From a virus, in the IMG/VR virus record IMGVR_UViG_3300020045_001036, positions 1 to 64,000 of that record: 64,000 bases of DNA. One strand, given 5' to 3'. A program made the translations under genes and the position numbers. Below are positions 27,851 to 55,933 of this stretch, one piece after another. Below the pieces are notes generated by a model that did not search any database, had not been told where the DNA came from, and worked only from the letters and a program-made list of their open reading frames with translations. The stretch's first letter is position 1. Each line of letters starts with the position of its first letter.

Positions 27851-29488
27851 ATGAGTAAATCAAATACAAAACTCGCAAGTACCATAGGTACACTAAAGCC
27901 TAAACCTGCACTAGTTGCATCTAAGGCTATTCCAAAACCCGATACTACAAATATATCGGGCCATTCTGCTTATACTCAAGATAAATGGAGGAGATTATTG
28001 ACAATATTGAATACATCAAAGTTACAATCCCAATACTATAGAAGTGAATCTGCTACATTGAAAGATTTACACACTTTAATTGCTGATTGTGCTCAAGAAA
28101 ATTTATATTTAACTTGTCAATGCATTGTCTATTCTAGATGTGTAGGAGAAGGTCTTAGGACTATATCCCATGCTGCATCTGTATTTATATCCTCATATTT
28201 AGCTGGCGCTGAATTCTCAAAGAGATTTTACTCTCAATGGGATAAAGGTAAAAAGCAAGGTGGCGTTATATTTAGACCAGATGATATGTCTGAAATTATG
28301 CAAGGTTTTATTGCTTTGAATACTTCAACAGAATCCAGTCCTAAACTAACTAATGCAATGAAAAAAGGTTTTGCTAACGCTATTGAATCTTATGATTCCT
28401 ATCCGTTATTAAAATACAAATCTTCACTGATTGACGTTATAAATCTAGTTAGACCGAGTTCAGCTAGATCTAAAGCTACTGTTGAGGTGAATAATGAATC
28501 TATTAAAACAATAGATGCTATTATGAGAGGCCTTAAAGTGTCTGCTGACACATGGGAAGTAAATCAAGTAAAAGCTGGCCAAATTGTTGCTGAAGCTGTT
28601 AAAGAAGGTAAAGTTGATATTATTGAAGCTAAAACTATTTTAACAGATGCTAAAGCAGAAAATTGGGATGAACTGTTATCTAATGATAAATTAGGGATTC
28701 TAGCCGCTATTAGGAATATTAGAAATATTCTATTAAACAATCCTAAAAAATCTACAATAGCTACATTAGATACTCTATTATCTAATCCGGATAGAATTAG
28801 AGCTGGTAAAATATTCCCGTATCAATTAGATATGGCAAATGAACTTATCATGCAAGAATTTCCACATAATCCAGATGCTAGACAGTTACAAGTAGCATTA
28901 CTTAAAGGCTACATGCATGCTATACCTAATCTTGCTGCTATTCTACCGGGTAGGAATGTCGTATTTTTAGACCAATCTGGTTCTATGGATAAAGTAATTA
29001 GATATGGTACTAAAAATGGTTCACAAAGCTGTTCTAAAAAAGCATCAATGCTAGCTGCTACCATAGCGTTAGCTACTAATGCTGACATTATTAGATTTGG
29101 TTCCAATGCAATGTACACTAATTACAGTTCTGTTGTAGATGTGTTTACACTAGCAGGACAATTAGATAACCCAAGAATGGGTGGTACTAGCTTATCGAGT
29201 GCTTGGAAGTTAGCTTCAAAGAAAGAAATTGGATATGATAGAGTTTTTATCTTATCTGATAATGAATGTAATATAGGATCTTCTTATGATAGATACAAAC
29301 AGTATGTAGAAAAAGTTGGTGATCCTTATATATATTCAGTAGATCTTGCAGGATATGGCACTGATTGTATGGCGGGAGACAAAGTAAAGTATTTTTATGG
29401 TTATGGTATGGCTATGTTTGAAGATATTGCTAAATTAGAGTATAATCCTGATCACCATATGGATAAAGTTAAACAAATAATAATCTAA
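27851..29488 (+). CDS. rsr: Ro60/Rsr-like TROVE + vWA domain RNA-binding protein
   Basis: TTN.SG..AY N-terminus, RPDDM, LLKY, DTWE, LAAIRNIRNI, KIFPYQ, MIDAS DQSGSM, GGT, ILSDNE. Confidence 0.9.
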   Translation: MSKSNTKLASTIGTLKPKPALVASKAIPKPDTTNISGHSAYTQDKWRRLLTILNTSKLQSQYYRSESATLKDLHTLIADCAQENLYLTCQCIVYSRCVGEGLRTISHAASVFISSYLAGAEFSKRFYSQWDKGKKQGGVIFRPDDMSEIMQGFIALNTSTESSPKLTNAMKKGFANAIESYDSYPLLKYKSSLIDVINLVRPSSARSKATVEVNNESIKTIDAIMRGLKVSADTWEVNQVKAGQIVAEAVKEGKVDIIEAKTILTDAKAENWDELLSNDKLGILAAIRNIRNILLNNPKKSTIATLDTLLSNPDRIRAGKIFPYQLDMANELIMQEFPHNPDARQLQVALLKGYMHAIPNLAAILPGRNVVFLDQSGSMDKVIRYGTKNGSQSCSKKASMLAATIALATNADIIRFGSNAMYTNYSSVVDVFTLAGQLDNPRMGGTSLSSAWKLASKKEIGYDRVFILSDNECNIGSSYDRYKQYVEKVGDPYIYSVDLAGYGTDCMAGDKVKYFYGYGMAMFEDIAKLEYNPDHHMDKVKQIII

Positions 29489-30046: not shown

Positions 30047-30355
30047 ATGAAAAAAATATTATCATTATTAGTGCTTATTCTTATCTTTAGCTCTTGTACA
30101 GATGCTAATAAAGCTAAGTTATATGGCTATGGAAAAGATTTTAAAATTGAAATGCTTAGTTCTGCTACAGGACAAGTAATAAAAATTTATCATAGTTCTG
30201 GTAAAGTGAGTTCAGAGGGTCAATCTGATGGATATTATTTTATGGATCAAGAAACTGGTAAGCTGACAGAAATAGCAGGAGGTATAATTGTTATAACTCC
30301 TGAAGAATATGTTGCAACAGGAACCTTAATTCAGAAAGTAGATTCAATACAGTAA
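30047..30355 (+). CDS. Lipoprotein
   Basis: MKKILSLLVLILIFSSC lipobox. Confidence 0.75.
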   Translation: MKKILSLLVLILIFSSCTDANKAKLYGYGKDFKIEMLSSATGQVIKIYHSSGKVSSEGQSDGYYFMDQETGKLTEIAGGIIVITPEEYVATGTLIQKVDSIQ

Positions 30356-30712
30356 ACCAGTAAACATCAAACCTAAACATGATTCTAGTTGCGAGAGTGG
30401 AACAGATAAAAAGAGAGACCTACGTGTTAATGCCACACTAGTTAGGATGATTACAAAGAATACAACTAAGGGACCAAGCCTGCTTATATTTTTGGTGTGA
30501 GTTGCTAGTAAGTAGTTGTAATGTGTTGCCTCGTAAGAGGGAAGTATGAAGGAGATAGTTGAAATCTACCCAACACAATAATCTAATAACCCCAAGCACC
30601 ATAACTGATAACTTGGTATGCTGGGGTTAGAAGGTTATAAATAAGTTAAACAAGTCTTGTAGCTTCTCAGAGAGAGGGAAGGTTAGATTTTATAACTAAA
30701 TATAATACATAA

Positions 30713-31080
30713 GGGCCCGACTGGTTTTGAGGTGGGATTAGTAAGTACAAAAGGACAGCCAGAGAGACAACTGTAAACTAAGGTGAATTTATTTAAACGG
30801 AAAAGCACAAATCAAAGCCAATATGGCTAAAGTTATGACATTACTTAATGGTGGAACCTCTGTAGAGAGTGATACTGAAATGTTAATGGCAGCATAATTT
30901 AATACGCATGAGTTTCCTTGAACTATAAACAAGGTGGTGGAATCCAACTAAATCAGTTGGCTCTAATCTTCCACATTTAGTAGTGTTTAAAGGAAGTAAA
31001 AGATTAAATACTACAATAAGCTGTAATATCCTTAGTAATGAACGTTGCTATCGACCGGAGTTCGAATCTCCGCGGGTCCA
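30713..31080 (+). ncRNA. ssrA: tmRNA
   Basis: Acceptor GGGCCCG/CGGGTCC-A with G3-U70; GGTTTTGA; GAC-CGGAG-TTCGAAT-CTCCG T arm; tag ORF 30799-30897 ending AA-stop. Confidence 0.9.
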
Positions 31081-31096
31081 CTAAAACAATAGAGAT

Positions 31097-31303
31097 ATGA
31101 AAATATTTGAAATTCGTGAATACTCTAATGGAGGATTTCATGACCAAGGAGAAGCTATAGGTTATGCTAAAGAAAACTCTTTAGAAGAAGCTGAGGCAAA
31201 GCATAAACCAAATAATTGGTTTAGAGTTAGAGAAATCACTCAACAGAGATATGATTTTCTAAAGAAACAAGCTGAGGAAAACATGAAAAGGTTTACCTTA
31301 TAA
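31097..31303 (+). CDS. Hypothetical protein
   Basis: 68-aa ORF. Confidence 0.55.
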   Translation: MKIFEIREYSNGGFHDQGEAIGYAKENSLEEAEAKHKPNNWFRVREITQQRYDFLKKQAEENMKRFTL

Positions 31304-31321
31304 AATAAAAAGATTAAAATG

Positions 31322-31353
31322 TTTGTTTGTAAAGATTAGTATTTATATCTTTG
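31322..31353 (+). promoter_or_regulatory. Bacteroidota sigma-A promoter for the ncRNA/tRNA cluster
   Basis: TTTG-N20-TATCTTTG, 7 nt before Y-like copy 1. Confidence 0.8.
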
Positions 31354-31360
31354 CACAACA

Positions 31361-31439
31361 AAATAGAGTAGTTAAAGTTAAGTTACTTCAAAAAATATGG
31401 ATTTTTAAACAACAAACTTAACTCCTGTTCTCTCTATTT
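31361..31439 (+). ncRNA. Y-RNA-like element, copy 1
   Basis: AAATAGAG/CTCTATTT and AGTTAAGTT/AACTTAACT stems with TAGTTA, ACTTC and TTCT core. Confidence 0.7.
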
Positions 31440-31443
31440 AAAT

Positions 31444-31517
31444 TCCTCTCTAGCTCAATTGGTTAGAGCTCCGCACTGTTAATGCGGAGGTTCCTGGTTC
31501 GAGCCCAGGGAGAGGAG
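31444..31517 (+). tRNA. tRNA-Asn(GTT)
   Basis: Full cloverleaf, loop CTGTTAA. Confidence 0.95.
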
Positions 31518-31527
31518 CAATAAAAAC

Positions 31528-31602
31528 TGGGGGAAACGATAGTTCGAACCTATCTGGGGCCACAATAGTGTGGTTCTATCGTCTAGGGGATAGGACGCCC
31601 TA
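31528..31602 (+). ncRNA. Circularly permuted tRNA-like RNA (T arm - closed acceptor stem - D arm)
   Basis: The 3' half precedes the 5' half and all stems pair. Confidence 0.8.
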
Positions 31603-31610
31603 AAATTACA

Positions 31611-31733
31611 AATACAAGGTAGTTATAACTAAGTTACTTCAACTTTAGCTCATAGAGCAAATAACTTTTAATTATTCGGAACCAGTTAAATCTGGTATTT
31701 TGCAAACACCTTAGTTAGCATTCTCCTTGTATT
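31611..31733 (+). ncRNA. Y-RNA-like element, copy 2, with degenerate tRNA-Lys(TTT) insert
   Basis: AATACAAGG/CCTTGTATT and TAACTAAG/CTTAGTTA stems; internal D-, anticodon- and T-like arms. Confidence 0.75.
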
Positions 31734-31789
31734 ATTATTTCTTTATGTGAATTATATGTTGTACCTTTGTACATATTAATTCACATGTT

Positions 31790-32254
31790 ATGAACACAGA
31801 ACAATTTATACCTTGGTTTACAGGGTTATTTGAAGGAGAAGGATCCTTCTACATTACAAAAGGTATAGCAAAAGGCTTATCCTTGACATCTACAGATTTA
31901 GATGTGTTAGAGAGAATACAAGAGCATTTAGGTGGCAATATCTGTGCAAGTACAACAAAGAGAGAGCATTGGAAACAAGCCTATATTTGGACTATACACG
32001 GTATAAATGCTAAAAGGGTTGTAGAAAATATGCAACCATACCTTTTAAATAGAAGATTAAATAGATCCCAGGAATGGATATCTTTATATGATGCTAATGT
32101 AGAAATACAAGCAACTAAGAAATTAGAACAAGAACAAAAAATTCAACAAATTTTAATTTTAAGTGAAACAGGTTTAACACATTCTCAAATAGCTTCACAA
32201 ATGGGTTATGAAAGAAGTAGTGTAACTAAGATCATTAACAAGATTAGACCTTAG
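31790..32254 (+). CDS. Free-standing LAGLIDADG homing endonuclease with C-terminal HTH
   Basis: WFTGLFEGEGSF motif; TACCTTTG at 31762-31769. Confidence 0.85.
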   Translation: MNTEQFIPWFTGLFEGEGSFYITKGIAKGLSLTSTDLDVLERIQEHLGGNICASTTKREHWKQAYIWTIHGINAKRVVENMQPYLLNRRLNRSQEWISLYDANVEIQATKKLEQEQKIQQILILSETGLTHSQIASQMGYERSSVTKIINKIRP

Positions 32255-32283
32255 TCTCACCTTTCACACTAATCTTTATTATT

Positions 32284-32469
32284 ATGAGCAGAACTTTAAG
32301 AAGATCAAAAAAAGATAATAAAATATATCCAGAAGGACAATTTCCTAAAGTCTTTAGATATGTATGTAGATGTTCTTATTGTACAGGAGTAGATAAACAG
32401 ACTCTAGTTAATAAGATTCAAAAAAAAGAGTTAAAACAATTAATAAACTACAATGCAACATGGATTTAA
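32284..32469 (+). CDS. Small basic Cys-containing protein
   Basis: MSRTLRR...CRCSYC. Confidence 0.5.
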   Translation: MSRTLRRSKKDNKIYPEGQFPKVFRYVCRCSYCTGVDKQTLVNKIQKKELKQLINYNATWI

Positions 32470-32554
32470 ATAAATATCTAGTATTAGGAATATTAGGTTT
32501 AAATATTGCATTATATCTTTATATCTATATCGTAGATATAAAGAAAAATAAGAT

Positions 32555-32635
32555 AACACAATAGTAATGAGAAAGTTACTTCAACAAAATCTGTAACATT
32601 TTATAAAACCAACTTTCTTAAATGTTCTTTGTGTT
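32555..32635 (+). ncRNA. Y-RNA-like element, copy 3
   Basis: AACACAA/TTGTGTT and TGAGAAAGTT/AACTTTCTTA stems, same core. Confidence 0.7.
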
Positions 32636-32638
32636 TAT

Positions 32639-32712
32639 GGCCCTTTAGCTCAGCTTGGTAGAGCAGTTGACTCATAATCAAAAGGTCTCAGGTTCAAATC
32701 CTGGAGGGGCCA
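32639..32712 (+). tRNA. tRNA(CAT), likely Ile2
   Basis: GGCCCTT acceptor and GA-CTCATAA-TC, typical of Ile2. Confidence 0.85.
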
Positions 32713-32743
32713 CAACTAATTAATTAACTAAACAATTAAAATC

Positions 32744-32887
32744 ATGCCTAAAGTAAAAATAAAACAACAGACTCCACAAGAACGCGCTGATGCGTTCCAT
32801 AATTGGATGCAAAATAAAGTCAAATCTGTACATCTAGCTGATAATGCTAAAATGTCGGAAGCTTATGTAAAAGTATATAAAGCATAG
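32744..32887 (+). CDS. 47-aa hypothetical protein
   Basis: MPKVKIKQQTPQERADAFHNWM... Confidence 0.45.
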   Translation: MPKVKIKQQTPQERADAFHNWMQNKVKSVHLADNAKMSEAYVKVYKA

Positions 32888-32992
32888 CCCTATACTTGAT
32901 GGCTATAGGGTTTAAGTAAGCACATACATTCAGATAACATTACACACTAAGAACAATTGAATGTTCATTCTGACGTATGTGCTTTAAAATAT

Positions 32993-33063
32993 AGGATATA
33001 GTTATAAGTAAGTTACTTCAAAAACGCTATTTTTAAAAAAAACTTACTTAGCTTTCTTATCCT
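32993..33063 (+). ncRNA. Y-RNA-like element, copy 4
   Basis: AGGATA/TATCCT and TAAGTAAGTT/AACTTACTTA stems, same core. Confidence 0.7.
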
Positions 33064-33187
33064 TAAACTTAATGAGAGAACCGTGATATGCACCTTTAGG
33101 TAGTATAGAGCAAACGTCATACTCATTACAATACTAGTCCATACGGGTAGATGGTTAACTTGCTAATACCATGCAAGCTAGTAAAAT

Positions 33188-34200: not shown

Positions 34201-34272
34201 GGCCTATTCGTCTATTGGTTAGGACCCCAGGTTTTCAGCCTGGTAAGAACAGTTCGACTCTGTTATAGGCTA
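34201..34272 (+). tRNA. tRNA-Glu(TTC)
   Basis: Cloverleaf, loop TTTTCAG. Confidence 0.9.
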
Positions 34273-34277
34273 CAAAT

Positions 34278-34534: not shown

Positions 34535-34564
34535 AACCCTGCATAGCAATATGTGGGGTTTTTT
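34535..34564 (+). terminator. Terminator ending the tRNA cluster
   Basis: AACCCTGCATA-GCAA-TATGTGGGGTT followed by a T-run. Confidence 0.75.
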
Positions 34565-54776: not shown

Positions 54777-55933
54777 TTTTAGTGACAATAAAAAATAAAA
54801 TTCCTTTATTTAAGGGGAAAGATAAGGCAACTTCAATTGAGTTAATTGAATTAGAAGAAGTAGGTTATGAACTAGTTTCTCAAAAAGATTTATATGCGGT
54901 AGGAGATAAAGCTATATTAGTACAGCCAGATTATTGTGTAAGTGATACAGAATTGTTTGAATCGTTTATTAGACCAGATGGTAATGAGTCCAAATCTATG
55001 TTGGGTAAAGTAGGAGGATTACCAAGAAGAATTAGAGCTAAGAAATTTACTCTATCTAAAGAACCTGAAGGAGCTCCCGTATATTCTAATGGTATCTTAC
55101 TGAGATACAAAGATGTAGTTAGATATATTGGTAAAGAAATGGATAGCACTACTATTACAGCAGACTTAGGAATCACTAAATATGAAGAACCAGAAGCTGG
55201 TACTCCAGGGTTAGCTGGTAGAGGTGGTAGAGATTTTCCAACATGGTTGTATAAAACAGATGAAACTAACATCAATAACTTGTGGAATCATTTAGAGAAA
55301 GTTGTTAAGTGGCCTGTATTCCTTGTGGGTACAGAAAAAGAAGATGGTTCTAGTATTACTATAGGTAGAAAGGATATGGATGAATACGTATGTTCTAGAA
55401 ACTTAATTAAACCTTTTGTAGAGACTAGATTTAGTCATATGAGAGATCTTACACTTAAGGAAAGATTTAATAAGTTCTTTACTGGTTTAACACCTAACTT
55501 AGCTACTTATAAAAAGGTACCTACTACAGACACATTTGTATTGCAAGGTAAGCCTTACTTAGAACAATTAGAAGGTTATGATAATTTCTTCTTAAGAGGA
55601 GAGTTAAATGGTTCTAGTGCTAAAGGATCCGGAAATAAAAACAATCCCGCAGCTAAAAGAGAATTAAACATCAAATTCTTTGGATTAGATTATATCAATG
55701 AAGTTGGTATAGCTGTTAAAGCTAGTAAAGAACAATTTGATAAGTTCTGTGTAATCAATGAACTACCTCAAGTTAAAACAGTGTTTAGAAAGAAATTCAA
55801 AAACAAAGCAGCTCTTGTAAAAGAATGTGAAGCTTATTTCAAAAAGAATCTTATTGAAGGTATTGTTGTTAGAACTTTGGATAGCTCTTTTAGTGCTAAA
55901 TACATGAATCTAGAGTATGATTCTAAAAAATAA
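54764..55933 (+). CDS. RNA ligase, Rnl2/DRB0094 family
   Basis: N-terminal OB-like domain, LGITKYE, FP.W..KTDE, TEKEDGSS, RGELNG, EGIVVR, SAK. Confidence 0.85.
   Translation: MEAVILVTIKNKIPLFKGKDKATSIELIELEEVGYELVSQKDLYAVGDKAILVQPDYCVSDTELFESFIRPDGNESKSMLGKVGGLPRRIRAKKFTLSKEPEGAPVYSNGILLRYKDVVRYIGKEMDSTTITADLGITKYEEPEAGTPGLAGRGGRDFPTWLYKTDETNINNLWNHLEKVVKWPVFLVGTEKEDGSSITIGRKDMDEYVCSRNLIKPFVETRFSHMRDLTLKERFNKFFTGLTPNLATYKKVPTTDTFVLQGKPYLEQLEGYDNFFLRGELNGSSAKGSGNKNNPAAKRELNIKFFGLDYINEVGIAVKASKEQFDKFCVINELPQVKTVFRKKFKNKAALVKECEAYFKKNLIEGIVVRTLDSSFSAKYMNLEYDSKK

What the first reader, a model, noticed from the sequence alone, without database searches (positions are those of the whole stretch)
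31528..31602. Circularly permuted tRNA: 3' half before 5' half, acceptor stem capped, open at the anticodon
Seen, in order: TGGGG (anticodon stem 3' strand), GAAAC (variable), GATAG-TTCGAAC-CTATC (T arm), TGGGGCC, ACA-ATAG-TGT (cap hairpin), GGTTCTA (acceptor 5' strand), TC-GTCT-AGGGGAT-AGGAC (Glu/Asp-type D arm), G-CCCTA (anticodon stem 5' strand). All stems pair and no anticodon loop is encoded between the ends. Established: the order T arm / closed acceptor stem / D arm is the YrlA Y-RNA effector topology, and permuted tRNA genes are known from some algae and archaea. Here the long Ro-binding stem is missing, and the element sits between tRNA-Asn and Y-like copy 2. Inference: it is either a stand-alone uncleavable, unchargeable tRNA-elbow mimic (a decoy for anticodon nucleases or tRNA-modifying toxins), or a precursor circularised by the phage RNA ligase and re-opened.
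Basis: partly seen in the sequence, partly recalled or inferred. Interest (0 to 1): 0.85.

Follow-up and report, generated by a model that had tools for sequence, protein, structure and literature searches.

The report
Handle-less tRNA mimic on a cassette
A phage that encodes its own Ro60 RNA-surveillance protein carries a 75-base RNA gene shaped like a tRNA turned inside out, with a sealed acceptor end and no anticodon; it is the tRNA-like half of a known Y RNA (YrlA) without the Ro60-docking stem, and it sits on a 91-base piece that close relatives lack.

Summary
Window 31528-31602 (+) encodes a circularly permuted, tRNA-Glu-like body. In order it has the anticodon-stem 3' strand, a 5-nt variable loop, the T arm, a 7-bp acceptor helix sealed by 3 more pairs and a tetraloop, U8-C9, the D arm and the anticodon-stem 5' strand. 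It has no anticodon loop and no free 3' end. A strict pattern finds it once in the window and never in 300 shuffles. Re-permuted, ARAGORN calls it a tRNA 64 times out of 64.

[quoted passage not shown] It lies 2 kb downstream of a phage Ro60 (TROVE + vWA) gene. It lacks any Ro60-binding stem and does not match Rfam's YrlA model.

Contigs of near-identical relatives from two studies join tRNA-Asn directly to the next Y-like RNA and skip exactly 91 nt (31518-31608, flanked by CAA/CAA). Three more distant relatives show the same uninterrupted order, so the element is a recent, cassette-like gain.

In relatives, the same kind of module is almost always tethered to a Y handle or a YrlA stem.

The most likely role is a free, unchargeable tRNA-body mimic, but function and expression are untested. 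The circularisation idea has no support.

The scan has already noted YrlA-like RNAs beside phage Ro60 genes on other DNA; the handle-less cassette form was not among the notes I saw.

The parts
31528..31602 (+). Permuted tRNA-Glu-like body. 31528-31532: anticodon-stem 3' strand. 31533-31537: variable loop. 31538-31554: T arm. 31555-31561: acceptor 3' strand. 31562-31571: cap (3 bp + AUAG loop). 31572-31578: acceptor 5' strand. 31579-31580: U8-C9. 31581-31596: D arm. 31597: G26. 31598-31602: anticodon-stem 5' strand.
31518..31608 (+). 91-nt cassette: the element plus its A/U-rich spacers. Cleanly absent from related phage contigs. Bounded by the direct repeat CAA (31518-31520 and 31609-31611).
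   Evidence: joint 31517->31609 'skips 91', both=3, in runs X2 and X3 from two studies; record 8 of X2 is contiguous across the joint
31444..31518 (+). tRNA-Asn(GUU), the upstream neighbour. The cassette begins right after its discriminator base.
31611..31733 (+). Y-like RNA 'copy 2' (TAGTTA...ACTTC handle with a degenerate tRNA-Lys-like cargo), the downstream neighbour. It abuts tRNA-Asn in relatives.
27851..29488 (+). Phage Ro60/Rsr homologue (TROVE + Ro60 vWA domains), 2 kb upstream on the same strand.

Best explanation
The element is a real, + strand RNA gene for a free-standing tRNA-body mimic. It is a tRNA-Glu-type core (elbow, T arm, D arm, acceptor helix) whose acceptor end is sealed by a hairpin. 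Its anticodon stem ends in the RNA's own 5' and 3' ends. Architecturally it is the effector (tRNA-like) domain of a YrlA-type Y RNA without the Ro60-binding handle.

It sits in the tRNA / Y-like RNA cluster downstream of the phage's Ro60 gene. It rides on a 91-nt cassette that this phage lineage gained recently between tRNA-Asn and a Y-like RNA.

Inferred mechanism:
1. It is co-transcribed with the cluster.
2. It is released by cuts in the A/U-rich spacers.
3. It folds into the tRNA L-shape.
4. It binds factors that read the tRNA elbow or body, meaning the same kind of still-unidentified factor that YrlA modules are thought to present to Ro60, or tRNA-processing and modifying enzymes.
5. It cannot be charged, and it cannot be cut at an anticodon. 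It would therefore act as an untethered competitor or decoy rather than as a Ro60 tether.

Shown here: the structure, its strand specificity, its context, the indel, and the tethered counterparts in relatives.

Inferred only: transcription, processing, folding in vivo, and any binding partner.
For: - Structure and statistics.
- tRNA-Glu-type D arm: UCGUCUAGGGGAUAGGAC is identical to the D-arm segment of bacterial tRNA-Glu genes, and the nearest phage tRNAs for the 5' half are tRNA-Glu.
- Ro60 gene 2 kb upstream on the same strand.
- Same module design in relatives: a model built only from five relatives' modules ranks the element first in the window (21.1 bits, E about 9e-4).
- Relatives' modules sit inside Y handles or in a YrlA homologue (L003:18551-18671, RF02553 42.3 bits over the full model), the latter with four compensatory double changes against L004.
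- Clean 91-nt indel: flanks are 79/80 and about 96% identical in a relative.
- Direction of the indel: three outgroup phages also have tRNA-Asn directly followed by a Y-like RNA, so the cassette is a gain.
- Unit boundaries: the cassette ends fall just outside the closing stem, as expected if the closed cloverleaf is the unit that moved.
- No stem pair is broken in 24 bp, although five pairs are G-U.
- A terminator-like hairpin follows the last tRNA at 34535-34560, consistent with one + strand RNA unit.
Against: - There is only one sequence, so covariation cannot be tested on the element itself.
- No homologue was found anywhere.
- Close relatives do without it, so it is dispensable.
- Folding energy alone is not exceptional (z -1.3 to -2.2).
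- Tandem-tRNA junctions score nearly as well with the module model (17-18 bits).
- Expression is untested.
- The partner of YrlA tRNA-like domains is itself unknown in the literature, so a competitor role cannot be tied to a named factor.
Confidence: 0.45

Rival explanations
1. Neutral passenger. The 91 nt is a recent recombination product with no function of its own. It could be a piece cut from two tandem tRNA-Glu genes, or from a Y RNA / YrlA of a co-infecting phage. It may have arrived by gene conversion together with the nearby LAGLIDADG homing endonuclease.
For: - It is absent from close relatives and has no homologue elsewhere.
- The same cluster holds two other lineage-specific insertions, a 68-aa ORF region and the LAGLIDADG gene at 31790-32254.
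- A segment running from the anticodon stem of one tRNA to the anticodon stem of the next identical tRNA would give exactly this order. This is the dimeric-tRNA origin proposed for YrlA, and tandem-tRNA junctions score close to the element.
Against: - Both ends fall exactly so that a 5-bp closing stem forms.
- All 24 pairs and every tertiary-contact nucleotide are intact.
- The 10-nt linker is itself a 3-bp + tetraloop extension of the acceptor helix rather than a typical A/U spacer.
- The three acceptor G-U pairs keep pairing only in the + strand RNA.
Confidence: 0.27
2. RNase P substrate. The 7-bp acceptor helix stacked on the T stem makes the element a target for RNase P, as shown for M. 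smegmatis YrlA. Cleavage 5' of G31572 and trimming of the cap would open the acceptor end. The result would be a two-piece tRNA-like RNA, or a processing mark that sets the 5' end of the downstream Y-like RNA transcript.
For: - The 12-bp acceptor/T-stem stack and intact elbow are read from the sequence.
- Chen et al. [quoted passage not shown]
- In relatives, some modules have long caps, and one encodes A-CCA after the acceptor 3' strand (L011:8002-8070).
Against: - Positions -1 to -3 are paired with 73-75 and closed by a tetraloop, which disfavours RNase P.
- No CCA is encoded.
- Relatives without the element have tRNA-Asn in that position, so no extra processing mark is needed.
Confidence: 0.1
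3. Permuted tRNA precursor. The transcript is circularised by a ligase and re-opened at the cap to give a working tRNA.
For: - The 3' half precedes the 5' half.
- The phage encodes an Rnl2-family RNA ligase.
Against: - No anticodon loop would result, because the flanks give no U33 or anticodon.
- There is no bulge-helix-bulge motif.
- There is no RtcB.
- No CCA or tRNase Z-type trailer lies in the cap.
- The phage already has a normal tRNA-Glu (34201-34273).
Confidence: 0.02
4. Assembly artefact. The 91 nt was spliced in from a co-occurring strain or organism when the metagenome was assembled.
For: - Only this assembly shows it.
- None of the three runs laid covers the element.
- The joint has 3-nt microhomology.
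Against: - The insert is a complete, self-closed structured unit with spacers typical of this cluster, placed exactly between two genes.
- Even a chimera would mean the cassette exists in a related genome.
Confidence: 0.05

Closest known systems
YrlA (Y RNA-like A; Rfam RF02553), partner of bacterial and phage Ro60/Rsr (Chen et al. 2014, PMC4201824; Wang et al. 2018, doi 10.1101/312249)
   Same: - tRNA-like domain with the T arm 5' of the D arm.
- Loop-closed acceptor stem and no anticodon loop.
- All elbow and core tertiary nucleotides present.
- Encoded within a few kb of the Ro60 gene, next to tRNA genes.
   Different: - No 5'/3' Ro60-binding stem and no GNCGAA motif.
- Not detected by RF02553, which does detect a relative's RNA at 42 bits.
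- T and D stem sequences differ from the conserved YrlA ones.
- U8-C9 instead of the UA linker.
- 10-bp acceptor hairpin.
- Carried on an indel cassette.
Y-handle / tRNA chimeras of Ro60-encoding phages related to this one
   Same: - Same gene cluster.
- Same T arm / capped acceptor / D arm module.
- Same strand and same spacing.
   Different: - In relatives the module lies inside the handle, often with a full anticodon arm.
- Here there is no handle and no anticodon arm, and a 5-bp stem closes the RNA.
Circularly permuted tRNA genes of Cyanidioschyzon merolae and some other algae and archaea
   Same: The 3' half is encoded upstream of the 5' half, joined through the acceptor ends.
   Different: - Those encode a complete tRNA, with the anticodon loop restored by circularisation at a bulge-helix-bulge motif and a linker removed by RNase P and tRNase Z.
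- Here the anticodon loop does not exist.
- (Features of the algal genes are from established knowledge, not tested here.)
Small stable RNAs of unknown function in the phage T4 tRNA gene cluster (species 1 and 2); from my own knowledge, not checked here
   Same: Non-tRNA structured RNAs encoded among phage tRNA genes and presumably matured from the same precursors.
   Different: - No sequence or architectural relation shown.
- No Ro60 in T4.

Membership tests
YrlA (RF02553) | tRNA-like domain: T arm, loop-closed acceptor stem, D arm in that order, with tRNA tertiary nucleotides | tested here: met
   the nucleotide inventory is read from the sequence
YrlA (RF02553) | Ro60/Rsr-binding module: long stem formed by the RNA's 5' and 3' ends, with the GNCGAA(N0-1)G motif in the 5' strand | tested here: not met
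   The flanks are A/U-rich spacers with no pairing and no motif. Both neighbours are self-contained RNAs.
YrlA (RF02553) | Match to the curated covariance model (gathering score 69 bits) | tested here: not met
   No RF02553 match on the element at E<=10. Best in the genome is 16.2 bits elsewhere. The model does find L003:18551-18671 at 42.3 bits and tethered modules at 20-33 bits.
YrlA (RF02553) | Encoded near a Ro60/Rsr (TROVE) gene | tested here: met
   TROVE + vWA_Ro60 ORF at 27851-29488, same strand, 2.0 kb upstream
YrlA (RF02553) | Bound by Ro60/Rsr; modified by TruB and DusA | not testable with these tools
   Needs immunoprecipitation and modification mapping
Phage Y-handle RNAs (TAGTWA ... 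ACTTC) | Handle: outer stem, TAGTWA opposite a TTCT loop, inner stem, ACTTC, all enclosing the cargo | tested here: not met
   No handle motif within 60 nt upstream. The next handle belongs to copy 2 downstream.
Circularly permuted tRNA gene | Complete tRNA restored on circularisation (7-nt anticodon loop, bulge-helix-bulge at the termini) | tested here: not met
   The ends are the two strands of the anticodon stem. Neither flank gives U33 plus an anticodon.
Circularly permuted tRNA gene | 3' half upstream of 5' half, linked through the acceptor ends | tested here: met
Canonical tRNA (RF00005) | Detected in native order by tRNA finders | tested here: not met
   ARAGORN and Rfam tRNA give no hit at 31528-31602

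The most novel reading that the evidence does not exclude
Closed, handle-less tRNA bodies are autonomous small RNA genes that move as cassettes between phage tRNA / Y-RNA clusters. They act free in the cell. One possibility is a decoy for host factors or defence nucleases that read the tRNA elbow, T loop or D loop. Another is a competitor that tunes which partner the phage's Ro60 / Y-RNA particles engage.
Probability: 0.2. Interest if true: 0.7.

Novelty: new variant of a known kind. Interest (0 to 1): 0.45.

Why it matters
YrlA-type Y RNAs are thought to work by tethering Ro60 to an unknown factor that recognises their tRNA-like domain. Here that domain occurs alone, as a separable cassette that nature has added to one phage and not to its near-identical relatives. 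This shows that the tRNA-like module and the Ro60 handle are independent building blocks.

It also supplies a natural plus/minus pair for experiments. A pull-down with a 75-nt closed tRNA body, or a comparison of phages with and without the 91 nt, could help find the long-sought partner of YrlA tRNA-like domains. The same experiments would show whether phages use free tRNA bodies as decoys.

If the cassette proves inert, it is still a caught-in-the-act example of how permuted tRNA-like RNAs arise and spread in phage tRNA clusters.

Tried and rejected
I therefore could not fetch the contigs of the closest Ro60 relatives (83-86% identical, P0002-P0005).
- Exact and gapped DNA patterns of the element found nothing in IMG/VR or in JGI metagenomes.
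- A pattern for the 3' end of tRNA-Asn plus CAA, meant to fetch close relatives of either form, found nothing in IMG/VR or JGI metagenomes.
- blastn of the cassette against GenBank phages: no match.
- Cassette against the fetched loci and nine relatives' whole records: only chance-level 10-19-nt matches.
- The D-arm pattern in genome contigs found only ordinary tRNA-Glu genes of Atribacterota MAGs and one unrelated Prevotella stretch. None is a credible donor.
- No RNA holder was listed among public runs, so expression could not be examined. The three DNA runs hold only small shares of the stretch, and none covers the element itself.
- Rfam Y_RNA RF00019: nothing in the genome.
- Sigma-70 promoter scan: not above chance.
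- The module model R1 does not separate true modules cleanly from tandem-tRNA junctions, so I did not use it for wider searches.
- Considered and dropped: a long-range stem enclosing tRNA-Asn plus the element (none). Also dropped: pairing of the A-rich flanks with the U-rich loops of Y-like copies 1 and 4, which gives only 6 A-U pairs, chance level in this A/T-rich DNA.
- Considered and dropped: a permuted tmRNA. There is no tag frame, a true D stem is present, and a standard tmRNA lies at 30713-31083.
- Literature searches for crAss + Ro60 and for permuted tRNA + phage found no description of such RNAs.

Full report
**What is there.** The window belongs to a complete 95,350-bp phage record with direct terminal repeats. 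A + strand RNA cluster runs from about 30.3 to 34.5 kb. It holds a tmRNA (30713-31083), nine tRNAs and an extra degenerate tRNA-like hit at 31639-31704. A terminator-like hairpin follows at 34535-34560. Two kilobases upstream, on the same strand, ORF 27851-29488 encodes a Ro60/Rsr homologue with TROVE and Ro60-vWA domains. It has more than 1,600 relatives in metagenomes.

Its minimum-energy fold is a four-helix junction (with flanks). The junction consists of:
- a 5-bp closing stem (UGGGG/CCCUA);
- a 5-nt variable loop;
- a T arm (GAUAG-UUCGAAC-CUAUC);
- a 7-bp acceptor helix, extended by 3 pairs and closed by AUAG;
- U8-C9;
- a D arm (GUCU-AGGGGAUA-GGAC) and G26.

All 24 pairs are standard or G-U, and five are G-U. 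On the opposite strand these become A-C mismatches, and the reverse strand does not form the cloverleaf. The nucleotides behind the tRNA elbow and core are all in place: U8, A14, G15, G18-G19, A21, C48, G53-C61, U54-A58, U55 and C56.

A strict pattern for the whole architecture hits once in the window, at these coordinates. It hits nothing on the minus strand and nothing in 300 dinucleotide-preserving shuffles. After in-silico re-permutation with any anticodon, ARAGORN calls it a tRNA in 64 of 64 constructs. In native order, no tRNA finder sees it.

The 5' half is of the tRNA-Glu type. UCGUCUAGGGGAUAGGAC is identical to the same segment of bacterial tRNA-Glu genes. The nearest phage tRNAs for that half are tRNA-Glu.

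**Relatives tether the same module.** I fetched ten loci around Ro60 homologues (54-61% identical) from IMG/VR. Their tRNA clusters contain many T arm / capped acceptor / D arm modules. Nearly all lie directly 3' of the handle motif TAGTWA...ACTTC that also marks this window's four Y-like RNAs.

Folding confirms that the handle encloses the module in L003:15024-15172 and L005:15110-15256. Several of these also carry a full anticodon arm after the D arm.

A second class has no such handle but has a closing anticodon stem that continues into a further helix: L003:18551-18671 and its L004 counterpart. Rfam's YrlA model (RF02553) matches the L003 RNA over its full length at 42.3 bits, E 2e-8, below the curated 69 bits. 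Between L003 and L004, four stem pairs change on both sides while pairing is kept.

A strict scan shows that closed modules without a handle occur only in the window, L003 and L004. The window's element is the only one whose closing stem simply ends.

A covariance model built from five relatives' modules ranks the element first in the window (21.1 bits, E about 9e-4). Junctions between tandem tRNAs reach 17-18 bits, so this is modest support. RF02553 does not match the element.

**The element is a cassette.** Logan contigs from three metagenome runs were laid on 30300-33100. In two runs from two studies, one soil and one wastewater, a contig joins position 31517 directly to 31609 ('skips 91'). 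No letters lie between, and 3 letters are ambiguous.
- In the 1,958-nt contig of run X2, the two sides are adjacent in the record.
- That contig matches tRNA-Asn at 79/80 and the Y-like RNA 31609-31736 at about 96%.

Near-identical phages therefore lack exactly 31518-31608. The missing piece is the element with 10 nt and 6 nt of A/U-rich spacer, flanked by CAA on both sides.

In L003, L004 and L005, tRNA-Asn is also followed at once by a Y-like RNA. In L003 the spacer CAAATA is even the same. The uninterrupted order is therefore ancestral, and the cassette is a gain in the window's lineage.

The same laying shows two more lineage-specific pieces nearby. One is the region with the 68-aa ORF (31074-31345). 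The other is the LAGLIDADG homing endonuclease gene (31759-32243). I found no second copy or homologue of the cassette anywhere I could search.

**How it most likely works.** Shown here:
- a strand-specific, complete tRNA body with a sealed acceptor end and no anticodon loop;
- its position in a Ro60-linked RNA cluster;
- its recent acquisition as a unit whose borders lie just outside the closing stem.

Inferred: it is transcribed with the cluster, freed by cuts in the spacers, and folds as an L-shape. It then binds proteins or RNAs that read the tRNA elbow or body. It cannot be aminoacylated, since it has no 3' end and no anticodon. It cannot serve as an anticodon-nuclease target.

Because it lacks a Ro60 handle, it would act untethered, as a competitor or decoy for whatever recognises such modules. 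The literature itself does not yet know the partner of YrlA tRNA-like domains, so the factor cannot be named. I give this reading 0.45.

The main rival, at 0.27, is that the cassette is a neutral by-product of recombination, possibly co-converted with the homing endonuclease. It fits the dimeric-tRNA origin model for YrlA. It is weakened by the perfect closure, the intact tertiary set and the structured linker.

RNase P opening of the acceptor, as in M. smegmatis YrlA, is possible, but the paired -1 to -3 positions disfavour it (0.1).

Circularisation into a tRNA is not supported (0.02). No anticodon loop would arise, and there is no RtcB, only a distant Rnl2-family ligase.

An assembly chimera cannot be excluded without the source reads (0.05).

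**Comparison and novelty.** The topology is that of YrlA, which its discoverers already describe as a circularly permuted tRNA with a closed acceptor stem. Membership in YrlA fails on two defining features that I tested, the Ro60-binding stem and the covariance model. The claim is therefore 'works like the YrlA effector domain', not 'is a YrlA'.

This scan has already reported YrlA-like and handle-bearing tRNA mimics beside phage Ro60 genes in many other genomes, so the family as such is not new to the scan. The new points here are the handle-less form and the direct evidence that it is a separable, recently gained cassette. I rate it a new variant of a known kind, of moderate interest.

Noticed in passing
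L003:18551-18671 and L004:17068-17195: A YrlA homologue (RF02553 42.3 bits, full model length) with an 18-21-nt cap loop. Four stem pairs change on both sides between the two phages while pairing is kept. It lies inside a roughly 290-nt block that is 91% identical between them. The window's phage has no counterpart.
   Followed up: partly
L005:15110-15256, L007:11745-11905, L010:12600-12700, L005:15919-16060, L003:15024-15172: Handle-bearing Y-like RNAs whose cargo is a whole permuted tRNA. After the D arm comes an anticodon arm: loops CUUAAGA, CUUAUAA, CUCAUAA, CUUUUAA, and possibly CUUUAAA, which would read UAA. The handle emerges at the variable-loop position or at position 26.
   Followed up: partly
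L011:8002-8070: A permuted module in which the acceptor 3' strand is followed by A-CCA and a 15-nt A/U spacer before the acceptor 5' strand. It looks built for RNase P and 3' processing, which would open a free CCA end on a handle-tethered tRNA.
   Followed up: no
L003:14895-15023 (similar in L005 around 15076): The opposite permutation: a tRNA-like RNA with an open acceptor stem (GGGGAAG/CTTCCCC) and a T arm. Its D/anticodon side is replaced by a loop-capped Y handle.
   Followed up: no
window 31074-31345 and 31759-32243: Two further lineage-specific pieces in the RNA cluster, absent from related contigs. One is the region with the 68-aa ORF 31097-31303. The other is the LAGLIDADG homing endonuclease gene 31790-32254 (Pfam).
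   Followed up: partly
window 31611-31733: Y-like copy 2 carries a tRNA-Lys-like cargo in normal order (RF00005 36.3 bits at 31639-31704), with weakened D and T loops. L005:15919-16060 and L006:14444-14600 carry a Lys-UUU-type cargo in permuted order.
   Followed up: no
L003:18726-18802: A tRNA with anticodon CUA (ARAGORN labels it 'Pyl'). It is an amber suppressor candidate, which hints at stop-codon recoding in that relative.
   Followed up: no
window 55325-55903: A 396-aa ORF with an RNA_ligase (PF09414, Rnl2-type) domain at 33.4 bits. No RtcB is found in the genome.
   Followed up: no
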